From a virus: DNA of 64,000 nucleotides. Of this stretch, positions 41,039 to 62,494 are shown one piece after another. The first letter of the stretch is position 1. Each line of letters begins with the position of its first letter. Both the position numbers and the translations under genes were made by a program. The stretch lies in IMG/VR virus record IMGVR_UViG_3300012178_000001, positions 28,495 through 92,494 of that record. One strand, 5' to 3'. The notes beneath the pieces were generated by a model. That model made no database searches, was not told the origin of the DNA, and saw only the letters and a list, made by a program, of their open reading frames with translations.

Positions 41039-41207
41039 TTAACCACTTGTATCAATCCATATATCACTGGTTGATGGTGATGATGAAGATACTGCTGTTT
41101 TAGGTTGATTTCCTGCGTGCCAAACGGTATTGCCATTAATTTTATAAGATGCATACGAAGTCCAATATGCTAACGAGTTATATATTTCACTGTTGTATAT
41201 ATATCAT
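41039..41207 (-). pseudogene. Frameshifted mini fibre remnant
   Basis: SD GGAGG + ATG at 41207, (AT)n run, then out-of-frame YNSEIY...INGNTVWHAGNQPKTAVSSSSPSTSDIWIDTSG*. Confidence 0.7.
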
Positions 41208-41225
41208 AGTTAACCTCCAACTATT

Positions 41226-41954
41226 TTATAGACTTATTTCATTTATTTCACCGTTTACATATGTTATTCCATCAGAACCCTCTATTACTTTCTCTGAACT
41301 TTCTGGATTTGTCATTTCATAATTAATCTTTACCTCTTCGCTACTTAATGATCTGTTGTATATTCTAATATCCTGTATTTTTCCATTAAACCAGTCACCT
41401 GACCTCGAGTAGTTAGTTCCGATATTTAAGCTATATGGATTAACAATACCAGTAATAGAATGATGACTAGTATCTTCAGCACCATTCACGTAAATACTAG
41501 TAGAACTTCCATTGTATGTTATTACTACATTGTTCCAACTATTAAGGTTATAAGTTAGTACTGTTGATAAGTACCCTGATGACTTAACCGTTGTATCAGT
41601 ATAGAATTCCAATCTACTTGATGATTGTAAAGCTAGTATAAATCTGTTACTACCATTAGCCCAGAATATCCTTTCACCGTCTACACCAGATGTAGGGTAA
41701 AACCATATAGATACTGATTGTTGCGGACTAGTTTGTGTAACTGGTATACTAATGTAACTATCTACACCATTAAAACTATATGCTTTTTGACCTAGACCAC
41801 TAGTAATTGTTGCACCGCTATTTGTGCCATCATTATCACTACCAGAATAATCAATGATATCACCATCTAGTTTCCACCAACCTATGAGACCGAATGTTAC
41901 TCCAACTTCAGAGATTGAGTTATTATTTATTATACCATTCTCATATATATCCAT
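41226..41954 (-). CDS. Single LamG (ConA-like) domain receptor-binding subunit
   Basis: GLIGWWKLDG...FNGKIQDIRIYNRSLS...GEINEISL; equivalent to the C-terminal domain of 47437-50724. Confidence 0.85.
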   Translation of the reverse strand: MDIYENGIINNNSISEVGVTFGLIGWWKLDGDIIDYSGSDNDGTNSGATITSGLGQKAYSFNGVDSYISIPVTQTSPQQSVSIWFYPTSGVDGERIFWANGSNRFILALQSSSRLEFYTDTTVKSSGYLSTVLTYNLNSWNNVVITYNGSSTSIYVNGAEDTSHHSITGIVNPYSLNIGTNYSRSGDWFNGKIQDIRIYNRSLSSEEVKINYEMTNPESSEKVIEGSDGITYVNGEINEISL

Positions 41955-44314
41955 CAGACCTCAACTCCCCATAGTATTTCCTCAACCATGTCTTCAGAGC
42001 CAGTCCAACATATGAATTGACATCTAGTTGCATCCCGTCCTGAACTAGTTCTATTATAACTTATGACGTGTCTTGCACCCCAACCAAACATTAAGTTGTC
42101 AGAGGGTTCTCCAAAGTCATCTGACGGACTAGCAAATCCTATACTAGTTGAACTTATAGCAAGTATATCAGTTTTTCCATAGTAAATATCATCAATATAC
42201 ATCTTTACTTGACCATTAAGTTTTTCACCATTAGTACCTGTTAATATATCCTCCATAGTCACACCATTTGGTAATACTAATTTAACAGTGCAAGGCATTA
42301 TAAATTCACCATCTATACCGTCTGCGTGTGGATATACATAATTGGTCGGGTTACCATTTGAATCATATAGATTAATTTGCTTTACCCAAGTTACACTATC
42401 CATTTTAATAGCCGAATTATATATATTCATATCTTTATGAGATGCAAATACTCCTGACTCACTATAGGGTATTACTTTATTACTAGTAGTTGTAGCATGT
42501 AAACTATCATCTGACATATTTGTACCAAATAAATCATATTGTGGACCACCAAATTGCTTCCATGCTAATTTAATTATATTACTACTAGTGATTGCATGTG
42601 CATTTAGATTACCATTAGTGTCCATATTAACTTTTTCAGTGTATATATCCATTATATCATCATCTGATAGATTTGATGAATACATTTGGACTTCATAAAT
42701 TGTTCCATCAAACCACCTAGACTCAGGATAATATGTTCCTAGTTTATCAAATATTAAGCTATCTAATTGTGTATCTGCAGTTATAGTGTTCTCAAGTATT
42801 CCATTTATATAAAGTTTATATACACCATTTCCGTCATAGGTATATGTAAGCATATATTTTACACCATTTTGAAGTACTGTAGTTCCTGTGTACCAACCTC
42901 TCTCTGGTATATCTTGATGTATCCAAATTCCTATTTTTTGTTCATATATACTTAACCAATTAGTATTAGAATCATAACTTCCAGAGGACATTATAGAGCG
43001 TATGTCTGATATATCTGATGGTTTTATCCATTCTATTACACTCCAAGAAGTATTAGATAACATTATTGTTTTATCTGATTTTATTAGATTATCTACTCCA
43101 TTAAATTCATAATCACCTATCCCAACAGTATTTGAACCATTCCATTTTGGTGTTGTTGAAGGTACAATATATGAATTATTCCCCTGACCACTGCAGTCAC
43201 TTATAACTCCATAGTCTCTTATATCTTCTATAAACTCTGTTGCATGATCCTTTTCTTCAAGTTGTATTTTTGTTACTTTAATATCAATACTATCAATATT
43301 AGAGTAGTAGTCTCCAGTTAATATATCTAATCTCAGTTTATCACTTGTGCCAGAATAGACTGCAGTTACTTCGCATCTAATATATCCACCAGTACCATCC
43401 AATATTACATAACTTTGTGGTTGTTCTGGTGCTGTTCCACCGTCAAACATCACTAGTCTTAGTGATGCAGTACCTACTACGTTATTCTTAAAGTATGCAG
43501 ATAATGTAATGGGTTGATTTGCTGGTGTTGTACGAACTAGATTTTGATAAATGTAATAATAACTACCCGTATCAGGAACAGTCACTATTCCATGATTATA
43601 TTTAATTGAGAAACTCCCAGTCCCATTTGTAGAGAGACTCCAATCAGATGTGTCTTCAAATAATGGATTGAATATTAGGTTCTGAGTTGGTTCTACAAAG
43701 TCATCGAATTTATAGTGTAATACTTTTGCTTTAGATAATTCCTTAACTTCTCTTTCACTTAGTGCGTGGTCATATATTTTTACATCATCCACTATAGCAT
43801 CAACATAATTAATTGTATATCCCTTACCTATTGTTATATTACTACTAGATACTGAACCTATACATGTGCTATTTGCTCCTTCACTTAAATCCTTCTCACC
43901 ATTAATATACCATTGTCTACTACCATCATCATATTTTACAATACACGAGTGATACCATTGTCCTACACTTAAATCACTAGAATTTATGCTGACATACGGA
44001 GATGCATTACCGTTGCCACCACCGCAGTAGAATCTTAAATGCCCAGGGGTTTCCAAGTTTATAGTAAACTCACCACCATATGCTTTATCTATTACAGTAC
44101 ATCTATTAGTAAGACCATTTATATAGATCCAAAATGATATAGACAATTCACCAACTATTTGTAAGTCTTCATGGTTTGGTACAGTAATATATCCATCCGA
44201 CCTACCAGTTCCCAGCTTACTATTTGAGTATACTGTAGATGTTTCCACCCCATGATGCTTTAATAAACTATCTTCTGCATTTCCATCTAATTTATAATGT
44301 GCTACTAAACTCAT
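41954..44314 (-). CDS. Multi-LamG/CBM receptor-binding protein
   Basis: MSLVAHYKLDG; LamG signatures (WYH...YING, DDVKIYDHALS); CBM-like insert ending IQLEEKDHATEF. Confidence 0.85.
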   Translation of the reverse strand: MSLVAHYKLDGNAEDSLLKHHGVETSTVYSNSKLGTGRSDGYITVPNHEDLQIVGELSISFWIYINGLTNRCTVIDKAYGGEFTINLETPGHLRFYCGGGNGNASPYVSINSSDLSVGQWYHSCIVKYDDGSRQWYINGEKDLSEGANSTCIGSVSSSNITIGKGYTINYVDAIVDDVKIYDHALSEREVKELSKAKVLHYKFDDFVEPTQNLIFNPLFEDTSDWSLSTNGTGSFSIKYNHGIVTVPDTGSYYYIYQNLVRTTPANQPITLSAYFKNNVVGTASLRLVMFDGGTAPEQPQSYVILDGTGGYIRCEVTAVYSGTSDKLRLDILTGDYYSNIDSIDIKVTKIQLEEKDHATEFIEDIRDYGVISDCSGQGNNSYIVPSTTPKWNGSNTVGIGDYEFNGVDNLIKSDKTIMLSNTSWSVIEWIKPSDISDIRSIMSSGSYDSNTNWLSIYEQKIGIWIHQDIPERGWYTGTTVLQNGVKYMLTYTYDGNGVYKLYINGILENTITADTQLDSLIFDKLGTYYPESRWFDGTIYEVQMYSSNLSDDDIMDIYTEKVNMDTNGNLNAHAITSSNIIKLAWKQFGGPQYDLFGTNMSDDSLHATTTSNKVIPYSESGVFASHKDMNIYNSAIKMDSVTWVKQINLYDSNGNPTNYVYPHADGIDGEFIMPCTVKLVLPNGVTMEDILTGTNGEKLNGQVKMYIDDIYYGKTDILAISSTSIGFASPSDDFGEPSDNLMFGWGARHVISYNRTSSGRDATRCQFICWTGSEDMVEEILWGVEV

Positions 44315-44338: not shown

Positions 44339-45433
44339 TTAACCGCTTGTATCTATCCATATATCATTAGTTGCTGGTGATGAAGGTGCTGATGATGCAA
44401 CAGTAATCTTATATCCATTGACTTCATTATGTGAATGACTAGCATTAGCAAATGCACTTGCATGCTCTCCGTCTAAAGTATCTACATCTAATTTTTTACC
44501 AGATACTGTACTCTTTACTGAGTCTGACCCGTATGATGTGGCATATGAAATATTCAATGGATTATCCCATTCAGCATTATCATCACCATTGTAACCTATA
44601 ATTAACTCCCTAACTGATATTACACTATAATCATATTGACCTGTATTAGTAACGTCACCAATATATATTACGCCATAATTAGATGGATCTCTAGCAAATC
44701 TAACTGTATCATTTGGTTTCATAGAACTAGTTGATTTAAAATATGCAAACGTGTTAATCCAAGTAGGAGATGCATATAAATAACCACCTAATGTAACAGT
44801 GAAACTTGTGTGGGTAGTATATTCATAGACATCGACTACCATACGCATCATAGAGTATGAAGACAATTTAGCTGGCAGTTTTATTCTTATAGCACCATTA
44901 TTATTACTTACTGGATTATTGTATGTTCCACCTTTCGGGTTTATAAGTTTTCTAACTCCACCTACACGATTCCTAATATTCATATTACTCATATCATTAA
45001 CTGTTAGATCTCCTGTCACTGTTCCCCCACTTGTTGGTAAGTAACTATGTGAGTGACTAGCATTAGCAAATGCACTAGCATGTTCTCCATCTATGGTGTC
45101 AACATCCAAACTATTACCAGAACCTTCGTTACCAACTGTTAACACACTTTTATTATTTACTCTAACATCCCCACCGTCATAGTTTAAATCTAATACACTA
45201 TACGAACCATTATTTATAGTCTTTATGTCTGAACCATTTAGTCTTATATTCGCAGAGTTCGTTGGTCCTATCTGTAGGGGATGTTCAGTTGTGGTATTAC
45301 CCACGCCCTGACTACTTGTAGTTTTTATAGTTCCACTTACACTCAAGGAGTTTATAACTTCTATATCTCTTGCACTAAGTAATCCTGTAACTTTTAGTAT
45401 TCCATATGTTAAAGTGCTTCCTAGGCTTGCCAT
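44339..45433 (-). CDS. Tail-fibre stalk protein (tandem copy B)
   Basis: MASLGSTLTYG, D.DTIDG..ASAFA.ASHSH, C-terminal APSSPATNDIWIDTSG. Confidence 0.8.
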   Translation of the reverse strand: MASLGSTLTYGILKVTGLLSARDIEVINSLSVSGTIKTTSSQGVGNTTTEHPLQIGPTNSANIRLNGSDIKTINNGSYSVLDLNYDGGDVRVNNKSVLTVGNEGSGNSLDVDTIDGEHASAFANASHSHSYLPTSGGTVTGDLTVNDMSNMNIRNRVGGVRKLINPKGGTYNNPVSNNNGAIRIKLPAKLSSYSMMRMVVDVYEYTTHTSFTVTLGGYLYASPTWINTFAYFKSTSSMKPNDTVRFARDPSNYGVIYIGDVTNTGQYDYSVISVRELIIGYNGDDNAEWDNPLNISYATSYGSDSVKSTVSGKKLDVDTLDGEHASAFANASHSHNEVNGYKITVASSAPSSPATNDIWIDTSG

Positions 45434-45454: not shown

Positions 45455-46549
45455 TTAACCACCAGTATCTACCCATATGTCATTTGTTGATGGACTTGAT
45501 GGAGCCGATGTTCCTACTGTAACTTTAATACCATTTACCTCAGTATGTGAATGACTAGCATTAGCAAATGCACTAGCATGTTCTCCATCCAGAGTATCAG
45601 CATCTAATTTTTTTCCAGTTATAGTCCCCTTTATAGCATCTGTACCATATGATGTTGCATATGATATATTTAATGCATTATCCCATTGTGCGTTATCATC
45701 ACCACTATGACCTATAATTAATTCTCTTACAGATATTACACTATAATCATATTGACCTGTAGCTCCTACATCACCAATGTATATAACACCATATCCCGCT
45801 GTATCAATTGCGAATCTAACTGCAGGAGTTACTTGCATAGAACTAGTTGATTCAAAGTATGCAAATTCATTAACCCAATTAAATGATGAGTATAAATACC
45901 CACCTAACGAAACAGTGAAACTAGACCCACCAGCGTAATCATATACATCAACTATCATACGTAACATAGAGCTATAATTCTCATGACCTGGTAAGTTTAT
46001 CTTTATAGCCCCGTTTATATTACTTGATGTTAGGTTATAAGTACCGCCCTTAGGATTTAGAATCTTTCTAACTCCATTTTCCCATGTTCTTATATGTACA
46101 TCACTCATCCCATTAACTGTTAAATCATTTGTTACAGTTCCTCCACTTAGTGGCACATAACTATGTGAATGACTAGCATTAGCAAATGCACTAGCATGTT
46201 CTCCATCTACAGTGTCTGCATCAATTCCATTACCTGAACCTTCATCACCAGTAGTGAGTATCCTTTGGTTGTTTGCTCTAACTTCCCCACCATTATAATT
46301 TAAATGTAATATACTATAAGCACCGTTATTTATTGCCTTTATATCAGAGCCAGTTATTCTTAAGTTAGCACCAGTTGTTGGTCCTATTTGTAAAGGATGT
46401 TCTGTTGATATATTATCTGCGGCTTGACCACTTATAATATTTATAGAACCACCTAACTTTAAGGAATTTACTACTTCCATATCCTTAGATTTTACCAATC
46501 CTGTAATTTTTAGTATCCCATAAACTATTGAACTTCCAAGAGATCCCAT
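45455..46549 (-). CDS. Tail-fibre stalk protein (tandem copy A)
   Basis: Same length (364 aa) and colinear with 44339-45433. Confidence 0.8.
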   Translation of the reverse strand: MGSLGSSIVYGILKITGLVKSKDMEVVNSLKLGGSINIISGQAADNISTEHPLQIGPTTGANLRITGSDIKAINNGAYSILHLNYNGGEVRANNQRILTTGDEGSGNGIDADTVDGEHASAFANASHSHSYVPLSGGTVTNDLTVNGMSDVHIRTWENGVRKILNPKGGTYNLTSSNINGAIKINLPGHENYSSMLRMIVDVYDYAGGSSFTVSLGGYLYSSFNWVNEFAYFESTSSMQVTPAVRFAIDTAGYGVIYIGDVGATGQYDYSVISVRELIIGHSGDDNAQWDNALNISYATSYGTDAIKGTITGKKLDADTLDGEHASAFANASHSHTEVNGIKVTVGTSAPSSPSTNDIWVDTGG

Positions 46550-46804
46550 TATAAATTCACCTCATCTATTTGTCCTTTTATAAATACCTGTTTATCCTTA
46601 TTCTGTATTATTTGTTCGTTAGAATTAGGGTCTGTCATCTTATAATTAATAGTTATTTCTTCTTCTGATAGTGCTCTCATCAAATTTGTAACACTTTCAT
46701 AGTTTCCCATCAGCAACAGTTGGTGAGCCATCAACTATCCCATGATGCTTTAATAAACTATCCTCCACATTTCCATCTAATTTATAATGTGCTATTAATC
46801 TCAT
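46549..46804 (-). pseudogene. Internally deleted LamG head remnant
   Basis: MRLIAHYKLDGNVEDSLLKHHG... (stop at 46697), YKFDE fragment, then out-of-frame C-terminus RALSEEEITINY...KGQIDEVNL. Confidence 0.8.
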
Positions 46805-46822
46805 AATATAGACTCATATATA

Positions 46823-47437
46823 TTAACCACTTGTATCTATCCATATATCATTAGTTGAAGGTGATGATGGTGCTGTTGTCCCTACTGTAAGGTGATGTCC
46901 ATCTATTTTATCGCTATCAGCCGCCGAGTCGGAATATCGTGCCCTATCGACTCTAACCCCATAAGTACCTGATCCATTATACCCCATAAGAGTAGGATAA
47001 CTAGCTTTCCAACTAGTGTTTGGATTTGTTTTATCACAGGTTGCTCCAGTTGGCGTTGTACCTGCGGATGCATCAAAAATAGTATGGTTATTATTATAGT
47101 TTCTCCATGCTAATTGACCAACCACAATGTCGTCACCATTATTAGTATACCAATTTGTTCTGTTAGATAGGTGATACCCATCTAATTTATCGCTATCAGC
47201 TGCCTTTCCAGATGTAGTTAGGTATGTACTATGACTATGACTAGAAACAGCAAACGCACTCGCATGTTCCCCGTCAACTGTATCAGCATCAATTCCCTTA
47301 CCAGATCCCTCATCTGCAGTAGTTAGTACGTTATTTCCACCCACTGTCAAACTTTCTTCTATCTCCATTGCTTTAGCCTTTATTAATCTTGTCACTCTTA
47401 GTAGTCCATATACTATACTACTTCCAAAGTTAGACAT
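46823..47437 (-). CDS. Short tail-fibre stalk protein
   Basis: MSNFGSSIVYG, GIDADTVDG, HSH, YPTLMGYNGSGTYGVRVD, APSSPSTNDIWIDTSG. Confidence 0.8.
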   Translation of the reverse strand: MSNFGSSIVYGLLRVTRLIKAKAMEIEESLTVGGNNVLTTADEGSGKGIDADTVDGEHASAFAVSSHSHSTYLTTSGKAADSDKLDGYHLSNRTNWYTNNGDDIVVGQLAWRNYNNNHTIFDASAGTTPTGATCDKTNPNTSWKASYPTLMGYNGSGTYGVRVDRARYSDSAADSDKIDGHHLTVGTTAPSSPSTNDIWIDTSG

Positions 47438-50400
47438 TAAATATTCACCTCGCTTAATTCACCTTTAATGTAGAGAATGTTATTATCTTGTATTACTTTT
47501 TCTCCATTATTTGGATTAGTTATTCTATAATTAATTGAAATTTCTTTCTCTGATAGTACTCTATCATATATTCTAAAATCTTGTACTTTACCATTAAAGC
47601 TTTTAGCATATGGATATGATGCTCCTCCTGTAGATCTACCAATTGAACTAAAGCTAAAATATTCAGTATCTGGATTTGCCCCTCTTGACATATAACCAGT
47701 ATGAAATAGATTACCATTTTGATACCATCTTACAGGTCTCTCTGATTCGTTATTAGCAAATACTATCGTAAAGTGACTCCATACTCCTTTAACATCATCT
47801 GGGAATGCTCCTGAACCAAAAGTATAACCATTCTGTAGAGCCGCCTCAGTTCTAAAGTTCTTACCGTCACTGTATATTTCTATATGTCTTATAGTACTAC
47901 TCCCTCTAAATAATGACATTCTGTCAACTGCATTAGCATCTACCTTTATCCATATACTATAAGTACAACCACTTGGATAATTACTCGTACTAGTATTTGT
48001 TATTAATTCAGGGATTAGTATATTACCACCATATACTGTTCCATCACTAGTTCCACTCCCATCTAAATCATATGCTTGCTGTCCTAATCCACTTGTGATA
48101 GTAGCACCATCATTTGTTCCATCATTATTACCAAGAGAATAGTCATCAGTATTTCCGTCTAATTTCCACCAACCTACAAGACCATTTGTTATTCCAACCT
48201 CACTATATCCGTTACTATAATTCACACCAGATGATTTTAGCTCAATTATATTAAGTTCACCAGAAGATATAGGTCTATGTTCTCCACAACCTATGATTGC
48301 TTCAATAGGTAATTCATTTCCATTTACTACTTCAAACCTCGGTCTATAATGCTTAACATATGTTCCATCCCCAATTTCACCATACTCATACATTGGATAC
48401 TGTCTTACATATACAGATGAAGCATTACTCATCCAATTAAAGTTTCTACCTACATTAAAGTAGGTTCCATCAGTATAGTAACCTTTACCGCTAGTTGGAT
48501 TACCAGTTGTTCCATATGGGTATATAAAGAACTCCCATAATACCCATTTACCTAAGTAATTTGTATCACCCATTGATGGGGCAGTAAAATATGGATTTGT
48601 ATTAGCAGTTGTTGTGTTTACGTTACAGACACTGTCTGACATACCAACATAATTTCTTTGATTACTAGATGAGCTTGGCTCTTCGTGACAGTATATCCAC
48701 TGTGTAAATCTATATGTTCTATTTGGATTTATTGTAAATCTATAATATGTTGTTGGGTGAGCATATTGTTGATAATGTAATGAGTTCGATTCAAATTTTA
48801 TCATAGTATCAACTTCGTCGATAGGGTTTATGAAATCATCTATAATATTAGTATAATTTGAATTTGCATTTATATCCATGCTTCCAGAGAGCATAGGATG
48901 TGTAAAGGATTTACTTGCTGTATAACTTCCTTTCTCCCATACCTCATATCTTATTAGATTATTATATTCATCAATACCACTTTCATCGAAAGTTTGTGCA
49001 TTAAAGTCTCCTGATATATCTATATTAAGTCTTTGTTTATATAAATCATTAATATCATCTTGGGATAAAACAGTTGCATATATCCTTATGTCCTGTATGC
49101 ATGCCATAACCCCATAGTTGGCATAATCACGAGCTATTCTACCAATTGATATCCCTGTATCTATATTTGCAGATACATTACCATCCCTTATTGTATTTAA
49201 GGTTGCTTTATTTCCATTAATATAAATATCTAATGATGTTGACTTGAATTGCCCCTCATCTCTTTTTACCCATACTATATGAGTCCATTCATTTAATGGT
49301 ATAATTTCTGAAGTATAGTATGTAGTACTTCCCCATTCATCAAAACCTACCCTATCTGTGGCATAACTTTGATAAGATGATATAGCATTATTCCTACTCC
49401 CTATCCCCCATAGTCCTGCGGCTTGCCAAGTGCCAGTTCTTTTAAACCATCCAGAAACAGTGAAAATAGGATTCGTTCCAATATTAAAGTCAGGATTAGA
49501 TATATTTTCATTATCAGATTCAAAATTATAAGCACCATTTCCAATCTTACTATCCTCAGTCCATTCTGGTGTAGTTGCTAAATTCACTACCCCATCATTA
49601 CCTTGTCCACTATTATCGTTTATAATTCCATAATCTCTCGTTCCCACTACAAACTCAGTAGAGTAATCTTTAGTTTCAAATTGTATTTTCTTTACATATG
49701 ATGTTCCTGCATCAATAGTACTAGGCATGTGATAAAATGATACAATCACATCTGTCGAGGGATTTCCATCACCTAATAAATAACTATCATCCCTTGTTAG
49801 GGTTCTTTCATATTTCTCATAATCCAATGATGTACTACTTATCTGTGTGCTAGCACCCCAACTATCGCCAGGATTTCGGGTGTAAATATACATAGTAACT
49901 CGTCCACCAGCATCTTTTCTAACTTTATCTATTTTCATTAGAGCACTTAAAGTTACACTTTCTCCGTCAGCAACTCCTAATTCACTCCATGTCCATGATT
50001 GAGATAAAAATCCATATCCTGTACCTGAATAAGCATAACCATCTTCTCTTGGACTACTCATCCAATTCTTAGTAGGCTCTACAAATTCATCAAATTTATA
50101 ATGCAATACCTTAGCCCTAGACAATTCTTTTACTTCTCTTTCAGTTAATGTATGGTCATAAATTCTAACATCATTAAGTTGTCCATAAAACTCATAATTA
50201 TTAAGGTAAGAGCCTGCCCATTGTCCAATTAATATTGGATAATCTGTAAAATATGGAGTCTTACTTAATATTATTGAATTATCCAGTATTCCATTTATAT
50301 ATACTTTCATATTATTACTATTATAATTATAAGTGAAAGCTACATGTGACCATTCATTTAAAGGTGTTGTACCAATAGAATTTATTCCATAACTCCGTGT

Positions 50401-50724
50401 TCCATCTGTATAACCTCCGTCTATGTGAATCTTTTTATCACTTCTACGTGACATAGTAAAGTTAGAAGGAGCACCATGATTATGATTAGATATTAGTCCA
50501 CCTATTCCAACATCAGATGTAGGATATATCCATATAGCAAAGGATACATCTCCCCTTAAAGTCTGATTTGAGGAGGTTCGTATATAAGTGTTATCTGCAA
50601 AGTTATATGATTGTCCTATCTTACCATTACTTGAGATAGTTACTCCACTTGTTGTAACTTCTATATTATTCCCACTATAATCATTTATGTTCCCAGTTAA
50701 TGGAAAGTGTGCAATTAAACTCAT
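47437..50724 (-). CDS. Multi-LamG/CBM receptor-binding protein
   Basis: Three LamG domains (DVRIYD/DIRIYA/DFRIYD), CBM-like inserts, ends KGELSEVNI. Confidence 0.85.
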   Translation of the reverse strand: MSLIAHFPLTGNINDYSGNNIEVTTSGVTISSNGKIGQSYNFADNTYIRTSSNQTLRGDVSFAIWIYPTSDVGIGGLISNHNHGAPSNFTMSRRSDKKIHIDGGYTDGTRSYGINSIGTTPLNEWSHVAFTYNYNSNNMKVYINGILDNSIILSKTPYFTDYPILIGQWAGSYLNNYEFYGQLNDVRIYDHTLTEREVKELSRAKVLHYKFDEFVEPTKNWMSSPREDGYAYSGTGYGFLSQSWTWSELGVADGESVTLSALMKIDKVRKDAGGRVTMYIYTRNPGDSWGASTQISSTSLDYEKYERTLTRDDSYLLGDGNPSTDVIVSFYHMPSTIDAGTSYVKKIQFETKDYSTEFVVGTRDYGIINDNSGQGNDGVVNLATTPEWTEDSKIGNGAYNFESDNENISNPDFNIGTNPIFTVSGWFKRTGTWQAAGLWGIGSRNNAISSYQSYATDRVGFDEWGSTTYYTSEIIPLNEWTHIVWVKRDEGQFKSTSLDIYINGNKATLNTIRDGNVSANIDTGISIGRIARDYANYGVMACIQDIRIYATVLSQDDINDLYKQRLNIDISGDFNAQTFDESGIDEYNNLIRYEVWEKGSYTASKSFTHPMLSGSMDINANSNYTNIIDDFINPIDEVDTMIKFESNSLHYQQYAHPTTYYRFTINPNRTYRFTQWIYCHEEPSSSSNQRNYVGMSDSVCNVNTTTANTNPYFTAPSMGDTNYLGKWVLWEFFIYPYGTTGNPTSGKGYYTDGTYFNVGRNFNWMSNASSVYVRQYPMYEYGEIGDGTYVKHYRPRFEVVNGNELPIEAIIGCGEHRPISSGELNIIELKSSGVNYSNGYSEVGITNGLVGWWKLDGNTDDYSLGNNDGTNDGATITSGLGQQAYDLDGSGTSDGTVYGGNILIPELITNTSTSNYPSGCTYSIWIKVDANAVDRMSLFRGSSTIRHIEIYSDGKNFRTEAALQNGYTFGSGAFPDDVKGVWSHFTIVFANNESERPVRWYQNGNLFHTGYMSRGANPDTEYFSFSSIGRSTGGASYPYAKSFNGKVQDFRIYDRVLSEKEISINYRITNPNNGEKVIQDNNILYIKGELSEVNI

Positions 50725-51921: not shown

Positions 51922-51924
51922 GTA

Positions 51925-54728: not shown

Positions 54729-56165
54729 TTATCCGTTAAAAAATCCTAAACTACCGTCTGCATTTTCTTTTATAGTCCAACTACCAGTACCAAATCCACC
54801 GTCAGCACTCAATTTACCAGTAGTTGATTCATCCCCCGTATTATTTAAAAATCTACCATCTGCTTCGGTTTCTGTATAGTATTGAGAGTTATGTGTGTGA
54901 CTATCATTAGCCACCGTTACAGTCAATGTACCACCTGCTAAATCAGTCAATGTAAGACTACCTGATGCATCTCCACCTAATGTTATAGTTGGATCTGGTT
55001 TATTAGTTGCATTATTCCAATCTCTATAATAAGAACCATGTTGACCGTCTAATAAATCACTATCATCTGCAGTAGCATTAATTCCCAAGTACTCAGTATC
55101 ATGATTATGTGCTGTTGAACTTTTACCATTTAATGCAGTCTGTAAACCATCAACATTAGCAATCGTATGATTATGACTATCATCCGCAACAGTTGCAGTT
55201 AATGTACCACTTGCTAGATTAGTTAATGTTATATTACCTGACAAGTCACCACCTAAGGTTATAGTTGGGTCGGGTTTATTAGTAGCATTATTCCAGTCTA
55301 AATAATGAGAACCATGTTGCCCGTCTAGTAGATCAGCATCTAGTCCACTAGCAGAACCATCAACATTCTTTAATCCAGTAAGTATATCACTGTCTGCCAT
55401 TGTTGCATTATCTATATTAGTTTGCAATGTGTTTAGTTCAGTCTGTAGACCGTCAATATTACCAATAATATGATTATGACTATCATCAGATACCGTAGCA
55501 GTTAATGTACCACCTGCTAGGTTTGTTAATGTTATATTACCTGACAAGTCCCCACCCAATGTTATAGTTGGATCTGGTTTATTAGTTGCATACGTCCAGT
55601 CTCTATAGTAAGAACCATGTTGACCGTCTAATAAGTCAGCATCTAATCCACTAGTAGAACCATCAACATTCTTTAATCCATTCAATATGTCACTATCTGC
55701 CATTGTTGCATTATCTATATTGGTCTGCAATGTATTTAACTCTGTTTGTAAACCATCAACATTACTTATAATATGATTATGGCTATCATCCCCTACAACG
55801 CCAGTTATAGTTACATTACTAGTACCATCAAATGATACACTACCAGATATATCACCGTCTAATGATATAGTCCTAGCAGTATTTAATCTAGTAGCAGATA
55901 CAGCATTATCATTAGCTCCTAAGAATGCACTAGCATGCTGACCGTCTAATAAGTCAGCATCTAATCCACTACCAGAACCATCTACTTTTTTTACTTCCGT
56001 TAATATAGCATTTGAACCTATTTGTGATGCAGTTACAGAATGTGGATTATCTACTCTCTCAGGATGATTTTTTATATAATCTTCAAGATTATTTATACCA
56101 CCAAGTTTTAATCTACCCGTAACAATTAGCTCACCATATGTTATCGTTGATCCTAATTTTGCCAT
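54729..56165 (-). CDS. Tail-fibre stalk with HxH repeats
   Basis: MAKLGSTITYG; repeated GLDADLLDG / NKPDPTITLGGD / DDSHNH units. Confidence 0.85.
   Translation of the reverse strand: MAKLGSTITYGELIVTGRLKLGGINNLEDYIKNHPERVDNPHSVTASQIGSNAILTEVKKVDGSGSGLDADLLDGQHASAFLGANDNAVSATRLNTARTISLDGDISGSVSFDGTSNVTITGVVGDDSHNHIISNVDGLQTELNTLQTNIDNATMADSDILNGLKNVDGSTSGLDADLLDGQHGSYYRDWTYATNKPDPTITLGGDLSGNITLTNLAGGTLTATVSDDSHNHIIGNIDGLQTELNTLQTNIDNATMADSDILTGLKNVDGSASGLDADLLDGQHGSHYLDWNNATNKPDPTITLGGDLSGNITLTNLASGTLTATVADDSHNHTIANVDGLQTALNGKSSTAHNHDTEYLGINATADDSDLLDGQHGSYYRDWNNATNKPDPTITLGGDASGSLTLTDLAGGTLTVTVANDSHTHNSQYYTETEADGRFLNNTGDESTTGKLSADGGFGTGSWTIKENADGSLGFFNG
54961..55960 (-). repeat. Intragenic tandem repeats of about 280-300 bp
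   Basis: ccatgttg(a/c)ccgtcta recurs at 55036, 55312 and 55615. Confidence 0.85.
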
Positions 56166-59100
56166 TATATATTCACCTCACTTAATTCGCCTTTAGTATA
56201 GACTTGTCCGTCTAATGTCTCAATGTAGTTATCATTAGAATCTTTTCTACCTAAATCATAATTTATCTTTACTTCATTATCTGTTAATGCTCTATTGTAT
56301 ATTCTAACATCTTGAAATGAACCATCCCAATTATACGAATCACCGCTCACAGTTCCCGCTCCAACTAATAAATTTGAATTTAATGGGGGTGAATATGATG
56401 TTGTATTACCTGAAATAATATTACCATCCCATATTCCAAAACAGTTAACTCCATCAAATACTTGCCCCACCATATGCCAGTTAGTATCATTCCAATCTAT
56501 AGTGCAGTCTCTATATTCATTTTCACAATGAACTCTAAGCATATCATTTCTCGCCCATAGACCTGGATTCCATGTTGTACCTGAACCGAGAATTAAGTTA
56601 TTTCTACCTGTCCCTATTAGTGTATTTGCTCTAACCCAAAATATAATAGTGTACTGCTCGCTTGGATTTGGAGTAAATGGTAAAGTTATACTATCATTGC
56701 TTCCATCGAAGTAATAAGCCTTTTGACCTAACCCGCTAGTAATAGTTGCACCATTATTTATACCATCATTTCCCTTTCCACTATAATCTAGTGTATCTCC
56801 ATCTAGTTTCCAGTAACCTACTAATCCATCTGTTACACCTATTTCATTAGATGCTTCTGTTCCCTTAATTCCATTAGGGGTTAATACGTTTTCCCCGTAT
56901 ACAAATCCGTCTAATAACATTGGATCTTCTCTATAATCTTTAGTAAATGGGGTAGGATAATTCCTTTCCTCTAGTTGTATTGCACACCAGCTTAATTCTA
57001 CTGGAAGGTTGTCATCTGTATACATTATACTTCGAATATAATAGTCTCCATGATCTGTACTATTTGTTGTAAAAGTATAACTATATCTAGACCACTCAGT
57101 TGTAATAGTTTGTCCACTCATTGTTATATAATAATTGTCACTCAATCTATTTAAGGATATCCAATATTCATTAACCAACAATTCTCTACTTGCTTTTGAA
57201 TATACACTAATTGTATATGTTGTATTCGACTTTATATAGATGGGTCCATTTTCATTTTTATATGAACCACCTGAACCACCAACCGTTTTTATCATTTTTC
57301 TATAAGGCATGTTCATGTAGCCACCACTCTCTAAGTAAGTGACCTCAGCATAGTCTCCACCCCAATTAAAAGTAGAATAGACATTTCCATATATTTTATC
57401 TGAATAAAGAGGATGCTTCACTAAATTAACTGCAAATTCTACATTTTCTACTAATGTATGTGAGTTATAATTACCCTCACTATCCATAGTGGCTATCTGT
57501 TGGTACATTGAAGATATATCGTCTTGAGATAATGCACTTGTGTATAACCTAGTATCTGTCTGAGTACCATTACCATACTCACTAGAATGATTTTGTATTC
57601 TAAATTTAGTTTCTTCGATTAGTCTAGGTGTTGTAATACTACTATCAGTATTAACTAATACACCATTTATATATATTTTAATAGAATTCCCATCATACAC
57701 ATACGCTATAAATACCCAATCACCTATAACTAAAGGATTATTAACATCTACACTCTGAGTTCTAAATGAATTACCTGCATAAAAATATGGGTACCCAGAT
57801 TGATCTATCTTACATGAAAAATCTTCTTGAAGTATTGCTGAAAAGAAATGTGTGTAATCACTAAATGAAGATGGCTTATACCATGTTACTAATGAAAAAT
57901 CATTGTACCCTAACTTTATAGTATCCTTAGTCTCTATAAAGCTACTTGAGCCATCAAAATAATATGAACCACTTCCAAATAATGTATCATTGGTCCACTC
58001 AGGTGTAGTATCTATATTAACTATACCATCATTTCCTTGACCGCTACAATCACTTATAATTCCGTAATCTCTAATGCCATTTACGAATGGAGTTGCATGG
58101 TCTTTTACCTCTAATTGAATATCACTAACTTTAAAGTATGAACCTATTCGCTCAGGTGAATCAGCACTTGTAATATATAAATGTATAAATGTTATAGACT
58201 CACTAGTGTTATTAGTGTAAGTCCAACTAATTTTACTCATAGATTCCCTTGTTGCATATCCTGAACCAACTGAGATAGTAGTATTTGTATCATCAGTACT
58301 ACCATATATATGAAGCCTTATACCACCAGATTTAATTTCAGTTGACTGTTCATGTAAGAAACACGATAGTGTCACTTTCTCTCCAACACCCACGGATACA
58401 GTTTTATTAAGATTTACATCACTACTTGATAAGGTTATATTATTATCACCAGATGCAATTCTTTCAACTCGAACAGCGTTATCGCTATCTAGACCTTCGC
58501 CCTCTAGTAATGTATATGATGTCCCAGCAAACGAATCACCAAAGCCAGATGGACGCCAATTAGTTAGTGTTGTCAGTGGGTTAGTTAATAGGTTCTCAGT
58601 AGGCTCTACAAAGTTATCAAACTTATAATGTAATATCTTAGCTTTAGATAACTCATTTATCTCATCAGAGGATATCATACTATCATATATTCTAACATCT
58701 TCTAATTTACCATTAAAGAGTTGTGAAGGTGCCAGACCCCCATCATACTCTTGACCTAATGTGAATGTGTCATCTATATTCACAGTAGTTAAATTACCCT
58801 CAACTAAATTAGTTTGTCTTCCGTCCACATATTGATAAATTCTGTTATTATCTATATCAACATTTATAGAAATATGATGCCATTCTCCATCATTATATAA
58901 TGATGGTGTAGTAACATGACCCAGTGTGCCAGTATACAAATCTATTTTCCCATTAAGAATGCCAAATAATAAAGAGTTACCACCACTTGCAGTATTAAAC
59001 GATACTGTATGTAGAGATAATGCCGTAGTAAAATTAATCCAATAACTTATGCCAAAGCTTCTACCAAATACTCTTTTAGATATATCATTAGCTATAATGT

Positions 59101-59575
59101 AATCATCAACACCATCGAATTTTATACATCTGTCTAATTTACCATCTTCCGTAACTGGATTACCTACTGCTTTACCATCGATATTAGATATATCATCTTT
59201 GACATACTTAGTATTAGAATAAAGAGTCACATTATAAATGTGACCCCAATCCGCACTACCCGTATTATGGTAAATTTCAACCTTATTCATATAGTCGTCT
59301 AACATCTCTGGTGGTACTTTCCATTCATTAGTTTCTGTTACACCATTTGTTCCACTAACTGCATCAACTAATAGTACACCATTTATCTTTATATCTATTG
59401 CATTCTCTAGGTCATTCTGATTTATGCTTAAATACGTATCATCTTTACATACATTAGGTACACCTGAAAATTTAAATTCAAATGATTGCCCTGATGTAAT
59501 AATATACCAATCTCCGTCATACGACTCATTGAATTCCTCTACTGAATTTAATCTATATCTTGCTATCATACTCAT
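56165..59575 (-). CDS. Multi-LamG/CBM receptor-binding protein
   Basis: Three LamG domains, two CBM-like inserts (IQLE...TPF), ends KGELSEVNI. Confidence 0.85.
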   Translation of the reverse strand: MSMIARYRLNSVEEFNESYDGDWYIITSGQSFEFKFSGVPNVCKDDTYLSINQNDLENAIDIKINGVLLVDAVSGTNGVTETNEWKVPPEMLDDYMNKVEIYHNTGSADWGHIYNVTLYSNTKYVKDDISNIDGKAVGNPVTEDGKLDRCIKFDGVDDYIIANDISKRVFGRSFGISYWINFTTALSLHTVSFNTASGGNSLLFGILNGKIDLYTGTLGHVTTPSLYNDGEWHHISINVDIDNNRIYQYVDGRQTNLVEGNLTTVNIDDTFTLGQEYDGGLAPSQLFNGKLEDVRIYDSMISSDEINELSKAKILHYKFDNFVEPTENLLTNPLTTLTNWRPSGFGDSFAGTSYTLLEGEGLDSDNAVRVERIASGDNNITLSSSDVNLNKTVSVGVGEKVTLSCFLHEQSTEIKSGGIRLHIYGSTDDTNTTISVGSGYATRESMSKISWTYTNNTSESITFIHLYITSADSPERIGSYFKVSDIQLEVKDHATPFVNGIRDYGIISDCSGQGNDGIVNIDTTPEWTNDTLFGSGSYYFDGSSSFIETKDTIKLGYNDFSLVTWYKPSSFSDYTHFFSAILQEDFSCKIDQSGYPYFYAGNSFRTQSVDVNNPLVIGDWVFIAYVYDGNSIKIYINGVLVNTDSSITTPRLIEETKFRIQNHSSEYGNGTQTDTRLYTSALSQDDISSMYQQIATMDSEGNYNSHTLVENVEFAVNLVKHPLYSDKIYGNVYSTFNWGGDYAEVTYLESGGYMNMPYRKMIKTVGGSGGSYKNENGPIYIKSNTTYTISVYSKASRELLVNEYWISLNRLSDNYYITMSGQTITTEWSRYSYTFTTNSTDHGDYYIRSIMYTDDNLPVELSWCAIQLEERNYPTPFTKDYREDPMLLDGFVYGENVLTPNGIKGTEASNEIGVTDGLVGYWKLDGDTLDYSGKGNDGINNGATITSGLGQKAYYFDGSNDSITLPFTPNPSEQYTIIFWVRANTLIGTGRNNLILGSGTTWNPGLWARNDMLRVHCENEYRDCTIDWNDTNWHMVGQVFDGVNCFGIWDGNIISGNTTSYSPPLNSNLLVGAGTVSGDSYNWDGSFQDVRIYNRALTDNEVKINYDLGRKDSNDNYIETLDGQVYTKGELSEVNI

Positions 59576-59587
59576 TTATTATTTCAC

Positions 59588-62494
59588 CTACCCCAAATAT
59601 TTAAATCTAAGTGTATCAGTTGCACTATCATCAACCATTCTATAGTTACCTACATTATAACCATTATTTGCTACCATAGTTCCGTTTACTGTAACATTCT
59701 GTTCAGTAACTATATCTGTATCAGTTCTTATAAAGTTACTTGCATGTAAACCATCTAGTAAATCTGCATTAACTCCACTTCCAATACCATCAACAGACTT
59801 AAGTTTATTTAATACATCACTTGCAGTGTAAATACTACTATTAAGCTTAGCATCTAATGATGATTGTAAATTATCTATATTACCTATAGTATGATTGTGA
59901 CTATCATCACTAACTGTTGCACTTAATGTCACATTAGAAGAACCATCAAATGATATTGAACCTGATAAATCTCCACCTAATGATATAGTTCTAGCAGTAT
60001 TTAATTTAGATGCACTAACTGCGTTACTATTAGAGTCTAACTTACCGTCTAATGCAGTTTGTAAGCCGTCAACGTTACCTATGATATGGTTATGACTATC
60101 ATCAGCAACTGTAGCTGTCAATGTTCCATTACCTAAATCAGTTAATGTAACACTACCACTTAAATCTCCACCTAAAGTAATTGTTGGATCTGGTTTATTA
60201 TTAATATTAGTCCAGTCTATATTTATATTAGCCCAATCAGCATCTGCTTGAATTACCCAACTAGTTCCATCATGAATATATGAATCTCCTGTATCCTTTT
60301 CATATATCTTATCCCCTTCAGAACCAGTAGGTCTAGTATCTGTACTATTTATAACAAATGTATCAGGATTACCTAAATCTGGTATTAGTGATAAAGGTAT
60401 TTTTGCACTATCATCTAATCCAGCATATCCATTAGCTATATTTTTATTTGTATTTAGTTCAAATACTGAAGCATGATTTCCATCTAAGTAATCAGCATCT
60501 AGCCCACTACCTGTGCCATCAACAGTTTTAATTTTAGATAATACATCACTTGCAGTATATACAGATGAATTCAATTTACTATCTAATGCATTTTGTAAAC
60601 CATCAACATTACTTATAATGTGATTATGACTATCATCATTTACAGTTATTGTATAAGTACCACCTGTAAGGTTAGTCATTGTTATACTACCAGTTACATC
60701 ACCGTCTAAAGTAAGTGTTGGATCTGGTTTATTAGTTGTATTAGTCCAATCTAAATAATATGCACTATTGTTATTATCTAATAACGTACTATTATCTGCA
60801 GTTGCATTTATACCCAAGAACTTATTATCTGATTCTATCTCTGTATAATATCTAGTATCATGTATATGACTATCATCGGCAACTGTTACATCAAAAGTTA
60901 TATTTTCACTACCGTCAATATTAATAGAACTACTTATATCACTAGTAACACTTCCAGACACATCACCAGTTAAGTTTATATTTATTGGTGACTCTAGTTT
61001 AGTAGTAGTTGCAGAATTACCTGTGATACTAGAACTTATAGTATTTGGTAAATATACATCACTAATTGTTCCACTATTTATATTAGTAGCATTAAGATAA
61101 TAACTTGGTAAATTATTACCTAGTAAATCACTATTATCTGAGGTTGCATTTATACCTAGAAACCTACTATCTGATTCAGTTTCAGTGTAGTATCTCGTAT
61201 CATGTGTATGACTATCATCAGCAACTGTTATATCTAAAGTTACATCTTCATCACCATCTATATAGTTCATTCCACTAATATCACCTGATAATACACCTGA
61301 TACATCTCCAGTGAGAGTTATAGCAAAAGGTGTCTCTAGTTTAGTAGTAGTTGCAGAGTTTCCAGTAATATCAGATGTTATACTACTTGGTAAATGGTCA
61401 TTACTAATTGTTCCACTATTTATATTTGTTGCGTCAAGATAATAACTCGGTAAATTATTACCTAATAGCTCACTATCCGTTGCAGTTGCACTTAAACCCA
61501 GAAATCTATTATCAGATTCGGTTTCTGTATAGTATCTCGTATCATGTGTATGACTATCATTTAAAATATTTATGTCTAAAGTTACATTTTCACTACCGTC
61601 AATGATATTTAATCCACTAGTGTCACCAGTTATACTTCCCGTAACATCTCCACCTAAATTTAGATTAAATCCATTTTCTAATTTAGTAGTAGTTGCAGAG
61701 TTACCAGTAATATCAGAAGTTATAGTATCTGGTAAGTGGGTATCAGGTATTGTACCACTATTTATATTAGTAGCATTAGTATAGAATGAACCTTCTTCTC
61801 CGTCTAATAAATCACTATCTATACCGCTACCTACTCCATCTACAATTTTCAGTTTACCTAGTATATTTGATGGAGAATTTACTTCACTTATTGATTGCAC
61901 TAGATTAGCCTTATTAGTTGTATTTAGGTTAGTTAGTGTTCCTATATTACTAGTATTTGAATCCACATCAGAACTTAAAGTGGTGAAATTGTTATTCTGT
62001 AATAAGTTTAAACTTAATGTTACAGTTCCATCACCGTTTTCCAAATAATTTATATCATTAGCTACTGGTAGATATGTATTTCTTATGGTTTCTTTTATTT
62101 GTTCTTCAGTGTTATGAATATCTGTATTATTTTTATGTGTATCGTATTCATTATGAATTTCATTTATTGAGCTTGTTATATCTGTTGCTACAGTATTTAA
62201 CTCCATATTACCTATTTTAATATCATTATCCTCAATGGATGATGCATTTGTGTTAATTTTAGTCATGTTAGTAGATATATCATCATTATTACCAGTGATT
62301 TCTAATAAGTTAGATGCAATATTATCTTTATTAATATTTATCTCTGTTAAGTTATTAGATATATCCGTATCATTACTATTTATAGAATTTAAGTTACTAG
62401 TTATTAAGTCTGTAACATCAACCTTAAAATCTTGGTGTCCTAACAATTCAAGTATCAAATCCGAAAGATCTATTTGTTCAGCTTTTAATGGCAT
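59588..62494 (-). CDS. Long tail-fibre protein (N-terminal coiled coil, DSHxH repeats)
   Basis: N..I..N..I heptads, repeated DSHTHDTRYYTE, ANGYAGLD..AKIP, GLDAD.LDG. Confidence 0.85.
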   Translation of the reverse strand: MPLKAEQIDLSDLILELLGHQDFKVDVTDLITSNLNSINSNDTDISNNLTEININKDNIASNLLEITGNNDDISTNMTKINTNASSIEDNDIKIGNMELNTVATDITSSINEIHNEYDTHKNNTDIHNTEEQIKETIRNTYLPVANDINYLENGDGTVTLSLNLLQNNNFTTLSSDVDSNTSNIGTLTNLNTTNKANLVQSISEVNSPSNILGKLKIVDGVGSGIDSDLLDGEEGSFYTNATNINSGTIPDTHLPDTITSDITGNSATTTKLENGFNLNLGGDVTGSITGDTSGLNIIDGSENVTLDINILNDSHTHDTRYYTETESDNRFLGLSATATDSELLGNNLPSYYLDATNINSGTISNDHLPSSITSDITGNSATTTKLETPFAITLTGDVSGVLSGDISGMNYIDGDEDVTLDITVADDSHTHDTRYYTETESDSRFLGINATSDNSDLLGNNLPSYYLNATNINSGTISDVYLPNTISSSITGNSATTTKLESPININLTGDVSGSVTSDISSSINIDGSENITFDVTVADDSHIHDTRYYTEIESDNKFLGINATADNSTLLDNNNSAYYLDWTNTTNKPDPTLTLDGDVTGSITMTNLTGGTYTITVNDDSHNHIISNVDGLQNALDSKLNSSVYTASDVLSKIKTVDGTGSGLDADYLDGNHASVFELNTNKNIANGYAGLDDSAKIPLSLIPDLGNPDTFVINSTDTRPTGSEGDKIYEKDTGDSYIHDGTSWVIQADADWANINIDWTNINNKPDPTITLGGDLSGSVTLTDLGNGTLTATVADDSHNHIIGNVDGLQTALDGKLDSNSNAVSASKLNTARTISLGGDLSGSISFDGSSNVTLSATVSDDSHNHTIGNIDNLQSSLDAKLNSSIYTASDVLNKLKSVDGIGSGVNADLLDGLHASNFIRTDTDIVTEQNVTVNGTMVANNGYNVGNYRMVDDSATDTLRFKYLG

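What the first reader, a model, noticed from the sequence alone, without database searches (positions are those of the whole stretch)
41039..62494. 21-kb alternating 'stalk + lectin head' receptor-binding array with conserved, interchangeable termini
Seen: one late promoter (62525) and one terminator (41001) bracket a run that mostly alternates two gene types. Stalks are HxH/GLDAD fibres that mostly begin (L/F)GS(T/S)xxYGxLxVT and often end APSSPxTNDIWID. Heads are large LamG/CBM/ILEI proteins that mostly begin MSL(I/V)AH and end GE/Q..EV. Heads are coupled to the following stalk (TAATG at 56165, 47437 and 46549; 3-nt gap at 51921). Termini are conserved while the internal domains differ. Inference: a modular, branched or multi-fibre adsorption kit in which four different glycan-binding heads are displayed through common interfaces.
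Basis: partly seen in the sequence, partly recalled or inferred. Interest (0 to 1): 0.8.

Follow-up and report, generated by a model that had tools for sequence, protein, structure and literature searches.

The report
Multi-jointed phage tail fibre kit
This 21-kb late operon of an uncultured AR9-like giant phage encodes a T4-style jointed tail fibre, in which the large lectin-like "heads" are most likely oversized kneecap joints between fibre rods rather than tips, and there are several spare knee-plus-rod cassettes that could give the virus several receptor specificities.

Summary
On the minus strand, one AR9-type late promoter motif and one strong terminator hairpin bracket 13 ORFs plus two gene scars. 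Fibre genes ("stalks") alternate with 800-1100-aa LamG/CBM/ILEI proteins ("heads"), and the termini are much better conserved than the interiors.

Comparison with T4, with KVP40-like Vibrio phages and with about 20 IMG/VR loci shows a conserved three-gene unit: a rod with a "pre-knee" C-end, then a head, then a translationally coupled rod with a gp36-type N-end. This is the logic of T4 gp34-gp35-gp36. Head928 and the Vibrio LamG protein carry the ILEI domain that marks the T4 kneecap gp35.

The first five genes therefore read as a three-rod, two-knee fibre (968-1136-478-928-325). The other genes are extra knee-plus-terminal-rod cassettes, two of them decayed, that have no pre-knee rod of their own. 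I infer that they are alternative distal halves competing for the two shared pre-knee ends.

Serial knees also occur in other large phages, and follow-up agents of this scan reached similar "kneecap joint" readings on other genomes. I found no published description. Verdict: a new variant of a known kind, of moderate to high interest.

The parts
62525..62536 (-). AR9-type late promoter motif (AACA-N6-TA) ahead of stalk968
   Evidence: It is identical to the motif at 33180-33169 and fits the consensus in PMC5312081. Its function was not tested.
62550..62585 (-). Terminator hairpin of the upstream unit (16-bp stem)
59588..62494 (-). stalk968: proximal rod with HxH and G.DAD..DG repeats, a unique N-end and a pre-knee C-end
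   Evidence: It matches PHROG long-tail-fibre families at E down to 7e-44. The pre-knee profile gives E 0.0046, placing it in the top two of 133 ORFs.
56165..59575 (-). head1136: LamG-start knee protein (three LamG_3 domains plus a CBM-like domain)
   Evidence: Pfam LamG_3 E 3e-46. TAATG overlap with stalk478.
54729..56165 (-). stalk478: middle rod with a post-knee N-end and a pre-knee C-end
   Evidence: Post-knee N-end profile E 9e-7, aligned to residues 1-24. Pre-knee C-end profile E 0.004.
51925..54711 (-). head928: ARL-start knee protein (N-terminal hairpin, LamG-like, ILEI, CBM-like, unknown C-terminal domain)
   Evidence: Pfam ILEI E 3e-4 and CBM_4_9 E 6e-4. hhalign of the ILEI segment against the gp35 family gives E 2.6e-5. 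There are 92 representative homologues sharing the start and end motifs.
50944..51921 (-). stalk325: terminal rod with a gp36-type N-end and a DIWID C-end
   Evidence: The gp36 N-end profile built from T4 and Vibrio sequences gives E 0.007 among 1500 ORFs.
50757..50924 (-). 55-aa acidic coiled-coil ORF (possible fibre chaperone; this is a guess)
   Evidence: It resembles a small ORF after a DIWID fibre in L018 only weakly (E 0.02).
47437..50724 (-). head1095: LamG-start knee protein
   Evidence: Pfam LamG_3 E 1e-52. It is 26% identical over 629 aa to the Vibrio phage F86 LamG protein (E 1e-25).
46823..47437 (-). stalk204: short terminal rod with a DIWID end
   Evidence: A metagenomic near-twin (P0006) carries an extra 64-aa rod segment.
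46549..46817 (-). Head pseudogene: the first ~45 codons (with a TGA inside) plus the last ~49 codons in another frame, still TAATG-coupled to stalk364a
45455..46549 (-). stalk364a: terminal rod with an inserted beta-sandwich domain and a DIWID end
   Evidence: The AF2 model has pLDDT of about 70 for aa 160-300. The best fold matches are C-terminal domains of phage tailspikes and fibres, Z 8.7-6.1.
44339..45433 (-). stalk364b: paralogue of stalk364a (69% identity) with no head gene of its own
   Evidence: Post-knee N-end profile E 0.008.
41954..44314 (-). head786: LamG-start knee protein lacking the last LamG domain
   Evidence: Pfam LamG_3 E 2e-38.
41226..41954 (-). LamG242: the last LamG domain and C-terminal tail of a head, encoded as a separate gene with a TGATG overlap
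   Evidence: It is 35-36% identical to the C-terminal 240 aa of head1136 and head1095.
41039..41207 (-). Stalk remnant: a ribosome-binding site, ATG and early stop, then about 52 out-of-frame codons ending in the DIWID motif
   Evidence: It is a copy of repeat family D7.
41001..41032 (-). Terminator hairpin (14-bp stem) closing the operon
63217..64000 (-). Outside the stated range: the 3' end of a seventh DIWID fibre gene, followed by a 235-aa ORF that starts with two W.G..W strands (candidate tip protein for DIWID ends)

Best explanation
The operon encodes a T4-type jointed long-tail-fibre system.

The stalks are trimeric rod segments. The heads are greatly enlarged counterparts of the T4 kneecap gp35. 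Each is probably a single-copy joint that docks on the C-end of one rod and on the gp36-type N-end of the next. Its LamG, CBM and ILEI domains would be looped out at the knee.

Genes 1-5 build one fibre of three rods and two knees: stalk968 - head1136 - stalk478 - head928 - stalk325.

The remaining genes are extra knee-plus-terminal-rod cassettes: head1095+stalk204, a dead head+stalk364a, stalk364b, and head786/LamG242+a dead stalk. None of them has a pre-knee rod of its own. They most likely compete for the two pre-knee ends (on stalk968 and stalk478), so that virions carry alternative distal halves with different binding domains.

What is shown: the gene anatomy, the conserved junction motifs and their association across phages, and the ILEI link to gp35.

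What is inferred: physical contacts, stoichiometry, sharing of the proximal rod, and any glycan binding.
For: 1. Synteny with bona fide T4-like phages. In ValKK3, F86 and D479 a fibre gene is followed by a 1040-1150-aa LamG protein with the same start and a similar end, and then by a fibre with the same N-end. Their other fibres have T4 gp36 N-ends (blastp 8e-12).

2. The ILEI domain. T4 gp35 carries it (E 1e-8). Head928 carries it (hhalign E 2.6e-5). In D479 the only ILEI domain in the whole genome lies in the LamG protein (48 bits). Many LamG-start homologues also contain it.

3. IMG/VR loci. The unit of pre-knee rod, head and post-knee rod recurs, with Fisher p of 8e-13 and 4e-8. Chains with 2-3 knees, whose middle rods carry both end motifs, occur in L040, L044, L050 and L061.

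4. Window rods fit the profiles trained on other phages. Stalk478 and stalk968 are the two best pre-knee hits. Stalks 478, 364b and 325 fit the post-knee profile at residue 1.

5. T4 biology. Monomeric gp35 binds gp36 to complete the distal half-fibre, which then joins gp34 (PMC3004832). The gp35 N- and C-terminal segments together form the tower-like joint domain. This would explain why both head termini are conserved.

6. Head class pairs with rod N-end class, 6 of 6 and 18 of 18.
Against: - There is no overall sequence similarity between the heads and gp35 (blastp gives nothing with E below 1; whole-length hhalign probability is 0.1%).
- Heads 1136, 1095 and 786 have no detectable ILEI domain.
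- The head C-end motif is too short to score.
- The pre-knee profile does not retrieve T4 gp34 from the PDB or from the T4 locus.
- The E-values for the window rods are modest (0.004-0.04) and come from small databases.
- The comparative loci are not all independent.
- No multimer model, virion proteomics or imaging exists for this phage.
- Sharing of the proximal rod by the extra cassettes is deduced only from the absence of other pre-knee ends in a contig that CheckV estimates to be 36% complete.
Confidence: 0.62

Rival explanations
1. One reading: each stalk trimer carries a lectin head at its distal end through a common interface. This would give four separate fibres tipped by different glycan-binding heads.
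For: The heads are rich in LamG_3 and CBM-like domains. The termini are conserved. The stalk C-end motif is shared by 4 intact rods of the array and its stalk remnant.
Against: Heads are coupled to the start, not the end, of the following stalk. DIWID-ended genes in 23 other loci are not followed by LamG heads. Heads are flanked by specific rod ends on both sides in other phages. Stalk364b and the two scars break any one-to-one pairing.
Confidence: 0.13
2. One single daisy chain: every gene product from stalk968 to the last cassette joins in gene order, with DIWID ends acting as a second kind of socket for the next LamG head.
For: In T4, gene order equals assembly order. Chains with up to three knees exist elsewhere, for example L050.
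Against: The head pseudogene and the stalk364a-stalk364b adjacency would break the chain. Middle rods of true chains elsewhere carry the pre-knee C-end, not DIWID. DIWID ends associate with W.G..W proteins instead.
Confidence: 0.08
3. The heads are not fibre parts. They would be other late structural or accessory proteins (baseplate periphery, decoration, or large assembly factors) that merely share an operon with fibre genes.
For: PHROG labels the nearest families only as 'virion structural protein', and one LamG family as 'baseplate wedge subunit'. LamG domains are common in many phage proteins (most LamG hits of about 590 aa are not in such units).
Against: Overlapping stop and start codons with rods, conserved partner motifs on both sides, and the ILEI link to gp35.
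Confidence: 0.07

Closest known systems
Phage T4 long tail fibre: (gp34)3 - gp35 kneecap - (gp36)3 - (gp37)3
   Same: The gene order is rod, joint protein, then a rod with a gp36-type N-end. The joint protein contains ILEI and CBM-like modules (head928). Both termini of the joint protein are conserved, as expected if they form the joint domain together. The joint gene goes with the distal rod.
   Different: The heads are 2-3 times larger, with up to three LamG_3 domains. Three of the four intact heads lack a detectable ILEI domain. There are two knees in series instead of one. There are several extra knee-plus-rod cassettes and two pseudogenes. No gp38-type or S74-type chaperone domain was detected. 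The phage backbone is AR9/PBS1-like, not T4-like.
Fibre module of KVP40-like Vibrio phages (ValKK3 ORF346-349; F86; D479)
   Same: A LamG-start protein of 1040-1150 aa sits between a rod with the pre-knee C-end and a rod with the same N-end motif. It is 26% identical over about 600 aa to head1095.
   Different: These phages have one LamG protein per genome region. Their rods end in S74 intramolecular chaperone domains. They are annotated only as 'virion structural protein', and I found no published functional reading.
Multi-knee fibre loci in uncultured large phages (IMG/VR loci L040, L044, L050, L061), and 'kneecap joint' readings by this scan on other genomes
   Same: Rods and LamG-start or ARL-start heads alternate, with the same end motifs. 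Middle rods carry both motifs.
   Different: Those loci show 2-3 heads, each with its own rods. Here 4 intact heads and 6 intact rods (plus one split head part and two scars) sit in one operon, and most rods are of the terminal DIWID type.
Branched multi-tailspike systems (CBA120, G7C and phiK64-1 types; recalled from memory)
   Same: Several receptor-binding proteins in one virion, attached through conserved adaptor modules.
   Different: Those systems use N-terminal adaptor domains of tailspikes docking on one another, not a monomeric kneecap between trimeric rods. No homology was tested or seen here.

Membership tests
T4 gp35 kneecap (long tail fibre proximal connector) | ILEI/PANDER-like domain | tested here: met
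   Met for head928 only: Pfam PF15711 E 3e-4 (21.6 bits, below the 27-bit cut-off), and family-to-family hhalign E 2.6e-5 with probability 75%. Not detected in heads 1136, 1095 or 786.
T4 gp35 kneecap (long tail fibre proximal connector) | CBM-like domain after the ILEI domain | tested here: inconclusive
   A CBM_4_9 hit in head928 at aa 437-514 lies after the ILEI domain, but below the cut-off (E 6e-4). hhalign of that segment against gp35 finds no match.
T4 gp35 kneecap (long tail fibre proximal connector) | Overall sequence similarity to gp35 | tested here: not met
   blastp finds nothing with E below 1. Whole-length hhalign probability is 0.1%. No PHROG gp35 family hit.
T4 gp35 kneecap (long tail fibre proximal connector) | Gene sits between a proximal-rod gene and a gene with a gp36-type N-end | tested here: met
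T4 gp35 kneecap (long tail fibre proximal connector) | Tower-like joint domain made from the N- and C-terminal segments; one copy per fibre | not testable with these tools
   Only motif resemblance is available (xE[FV]G-like strands at domain junctions). No multimer modelling was available. The last 13 aa of head928 are disordered in the isolated model.
T4 gp36-type rod N-terminus | N-terminal ~30 aa match a profile of gp36 and post-knee rods | tested here: met
   Stalk325 E 0.007; stalk478 9e-7; stalk364b 0.008; stalk325 0.04. The match is weak for stalk204 (E 3.8) and stalk364a was not listed. The databases held only 1500 ORFs.
T4 gp34-type rod C-terminus | C-terminal sheet motif shared with gp34 | tested here: inconclusive
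   The resemblance is visible by eye in the alignment. However, the pre-knee profile does not retrieve gp34 from the PDB or from the T4 locus. Stalk968 and stalk478 do fit the profile of non-T4 pre-knee rods (E 0.004).
Laminin_G_3 (PF13385) domain proteins | Pfam match above the gathering score | tested here: met
   Heads 1136, 1095 and 786 and LamG242 score E 3e-46, 1e-52, 2e-38 and 1e-26. Carbohydrate binding itself was not tested.
AR9-type late transcription unit | AACA-N6-TA/G motif just upstream, and a terminator at the end | tested here: met
   The motif and hairpins are present. Activity is not testable here.

The most novel reading that the evidence does not exclude
The array is a combinatorial fibre kit. 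Interchangeable kneecap-plus-distal-rod cassettes, sorted by a two-class pairing code (ARL-start knees pair with GG-type rod starts; LamG-start knees pair with YG-type rod starts), assemble on two shared pre-knee ends. One phage would then display a mixture of differently tipped, doubly jointed fibres. The DIWID rod ends would be sockets capped in trans by the single 235-aa W-strand protein encoded just upstream.
Probability: 0.3. Interest if true: 0.75.

Novelty: new variant of a known kind. Interest (0 to 1): 0.55.

Why it matters
If the reading holds, the single small kneecap of T4 is the minimal form of a widespread and so far unannotated class of large, lectin-decorated joint proteins. 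These would let phages build fibres with two or three knees and swap distal halves.

This would give names to hundreds of proteins annotated as "virion structural" or "hypothetical" in jumbo and T4-like phages. It would explain why both termini of these proteins are conserved. It would also point to simple junction motifs that predict which fibre parts fit together, which is useful for annotating receptor-binding modules and for understanding host-range evolution in uncultured giant phages.

Tried and rejected
Searches for relatives:
- Megablast of the whole array against 50,697 phage records found no match.
- Single-protein scans of IMG/VR with stalk364a, the 1232-aa neighbour and head1095 found no relatives. 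Only alignment-based scans worked.
The context of the closest metagenomic homologues (P0003-P0011, including one on a 224-kb contig) could therefore not be seen.
- The first alignment of the head928 family was too divergent for a locus scan.

Sequence and profile tests:
- PDB sequence searches with stalk364a, head928, head1095 and T4 gp35 found nothing useful.
- Whole-length profile comparison of the head928 family with the gp35 family gave no signal. Only the ILEI segment matches.
- A profile of pre-knee C-ends against the PDB did not find gp34.
- A profile of knee C-ends was not significant for the window heads.

Structure:
- The AF2 model of stalk364a is poor outside aa 160-300 (mean pLDDT 46.5).
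- The head928 C-domain model is confident but has no clear fold match (Foldseek E at least 0.2; best Z 3.6). My first guess of a fibrinogen/intelectin-like lectin domain is therefore unsupported.

Other:
- The coiled-coil ORF gave only generic coiled-coil and unknown-function hits. The gp57A idea was not tested.
- Literature searches found nothing on LamG kneecaps or multi-knee fibres.
- I rejected the reading of the head N-terminal motif as a special adaptor, because it is the canonical first strand of LamG_3.
Full report
**Setting.** The window is the last 64 kb of a 92.5-kb IMG/VR contig that CheckV estimates to be 36% complete. GC content is about 30%. A virion protein gene is distantly related to genes of AR9, PBS1, BpSp, phiR1-37 and the Staphylococcus jumbo phages. 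The endolysin combines NAGPA, SH3b and amidase domains, so I infer a Gram-positive host. No close relative exists in the phage record collection.

**Observation.** On the minus strand, 13 ORFs and two scars fill 41039-62494.
- Six are fibre genes of 968, 478, 325, 204, 364 and 364 aa. They have HxH and G.DAD..DG repeats and strong PHROG tail-fibre hits.
- Four are large proteins of 1136, 928, 1095 and 786 aa with LamG_3 domains. CBM_4_9 and ILEI hits in them fall below Pfam's cut-offs.
- One 242-aa ORF is the detached last LamG domain of a head.
- One is a 55-aa coiled-coil ORF.
- The promoter motif at 62536-62525 equals the motif before the lysis genes and fits the AR9 late consensus. Strong hairpins close the upstream unit and the array.
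- Termini are far better conserved than interiors, and the DNA repeat families sit exactly on them.
- Two scars are real. The head pseudogene keeps about 45 first codons (with a TGA inside) and about 49 last codons in another frame. The stalk remnant keeps only a start and the last ~52 codons, out of frame.

**What the heads are.** Three lines of evidence point to the T4 kneecap.

First, in T4-like Vibrio phages (ValKK3, F86, D479) a LamG protein of 1040-1150 aa lies inside the long-tail-fibre module. It has the same start as the window heads and a similar end. It sits between a rod whose C-end resembles those of stalk968 and stalk478 and a rod whose N-end matches the window stalks. The other rods of those phages start like T4 gp36 (E 8e-12).

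Second, T4 gp35 carries a Pfam ILEI domain, and so does head928. The ILEI segment of the head928 family aligns with the gp35 family at E 2.6e-5. In D479 the only ILEI domain in the whole genome lies in the LamG protein. Many LamG-start homologues contain the same ILEI segment.

Third, a 2026 preprint describes gp35 as a tower-like joint domain made of residues 1-21 plus 324-372, an ILEI/PANDER-like domain, and a CBM-like domain that binds the whisker. A joint domain built from both chain ends would explain why both head termini are conserved. The heads also show xE[FV]G-like strands at their domain junctions, as gp35 does in its tower segments. This last point is suggestive only.

**The conserved unit.** The head928 family has 92 representative homologues with a common start and end. 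Alignment-based scans of IMG/VR returned 5 and 77 loci.

Among 17 distinct knee-type ORFs of at least 700 aa:
- 13 of the 16 adjacent upstream ORFs end in the pre-knee motif (..S[IL].F..), against 40 of 630 background ORFs.
- 7 of the 11 adjacent downstream ORFs start with the post-knee motif, against 21 of 630 background ORFs.
- Fisher p values are 8e-13 and 4e-8.

Chains with two or three knees occur in L040, L044, L050 and L061, and their middle rods carry both motifs. ARL-start heads are always followed by rods starting ..L[RK]GG..GG.. (6 of 6). LamG-start heads are always followed by rods starting ..L[GS]S..[YF]G.L.V (18 of 18; p 7e-6, but the loci are not all independent). The loci span 32-59% GC, so the unit is widespread.

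**Reading the window.** Profiles trained only on other phages rank stalk478 and stalk968 as the two best pre-knee C-ends among 133 ORFs (E 0.004). They also recognise the N-ends of stalks 478, 364b and 325 at residue 1.

The first five genes therefore read as rod - LamG knee - rod - ARL knee - rod. This agrees with the pairing rule above. In T4, monomeric gp35 completes the distal half-fibre before it joins gp34, which fits the translational coupling of each head to the following rod.

All other rods of the array (204, 364a, 364b, the remnant) and stalk325 end in the DIWID motif and lack a pre-knee end. Heads 1095 and 786/LamG242 therefore have no upstream rod of their own. I infer that these cassettes are alternative distal halves that use the pre-knee ends of stalk968 or stalk478.

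The complementary scars (one head lost before stalk364a, one stalk lost after head786/LamG242) fit interchangeable parts, but this is inference. The contig is incomplete, so further pre-knee rods may exist elsewhere in the genome.

**The DIWID end.** This C-terminal motif is not special to this phage. It ends tail proteins in 23 unrelated IMG/VR loci, and LamG heads do not follow it there. The next gene there contains W.G..W strands in 4 of 12 distinct cases, against 7 of 226 background ORFs (p 0.001). Just upstream of the array, the 3' end of a seventh DIWID fibre gene is followed by a 235-aa ORF that starts with two such strands. It is the only such ORF in the window. It may be a tip protein for DIWID ends.

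**Rod domains.** The central domain of stalk364a (aa 160-300, pLDDT about 70) best matches C-terminal beta-sandwich domains of phage tailspikes and fibres (Z 8.7-6.1). These Z values are within the common range, so this only hints at a receptor-binding role. A metagenomic near-twin of stalk204 has an extra 64-aa rod segment, so relatives are not identical at this locus.

**Limits.**
- There is no overall similarity of the heads to gp35.
- Three heads lack a detectable ILEI domain.
- The resemblance to the gp34 C-end was not confirmed by profile searches.
- E-values for the short terminal motifs are modest.
- Glycan binding is untested, and the T4 CBM-like domain binds a phage protein.
- No multimer modelling was possible.

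**Relation to earlier notes.** Follow-up agents of this scan reached similar "kneecap joint" readings on other genomes. These are leads, not independent evidence. I found no paper describing LamG kneecaps or multi-knee fibres.

**Verdict.** The feature is real. It is wrong on topology. I class it as a new variant of the T4-type long tail fibre.

Noticed in passing
window 63217-64000 (-): The 3' end of a seventh DIWID-ended fibre gene runs off the contig end. It is followed by a 235-aa ORF that starts with two W.G..W strands, the only ORF in the window with that motif. In other phages, DIWID-ended genes tend to be followed by W.G..W proteins (4 of 12 against 7 of 226).
   Followed up: partly
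window 51925-52554 (-), head928 aa 720-928: This domain folds confidently (pLDDT 85) but has no clear match among solved structures (best Z 3.6). The same domain ends cellular proteins that have prepilin-like N-termini (P0115, P0121, P0149).
   Followed up: partly
window 50757-50924 (-): A 55-aa acidic coiled-coil ORF follows stalk325. A similar small ORF follows a DIWID fibre gene in L018 (12300-12488). It is possibly a fibre chaperone, but no family match supports this.
   Followed up: partly
window 46581-46592 (-): An AACA-N6-TA match lies inside the head pseudogene, 32 nt before the start of stalk364a. It could be an internal late promoter for the two 364-aa rods.
   Followed up: no
window 37204-40902 (-): A 1232-aa ORF lies directly after the array. 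It has its own promoter motif (40991-40980) and no Pfam or PHROG match.
   Followed up: partly
window 62598-63195 (-): Between the 235-aa ORF and the array lie a 105-aa ORF and a short truncated ORF, just before the terminator hairpin. None of these has a family match.
   Followed up: no
loci L012-L015, L040-L061: There is a two-class pairing rule between the knee-protein start type and the N-end of the following rod (6 of 6 and 18 of 18). The unit occurs in contigs of 32-59% GC.
   Followed up: yes
P0006 (metagenomic protein): This is a near-identical relative of stalk204 with an inserted 64-aa rod segment. It shows length variation of this rod between close relatives.
   Followed up: partly
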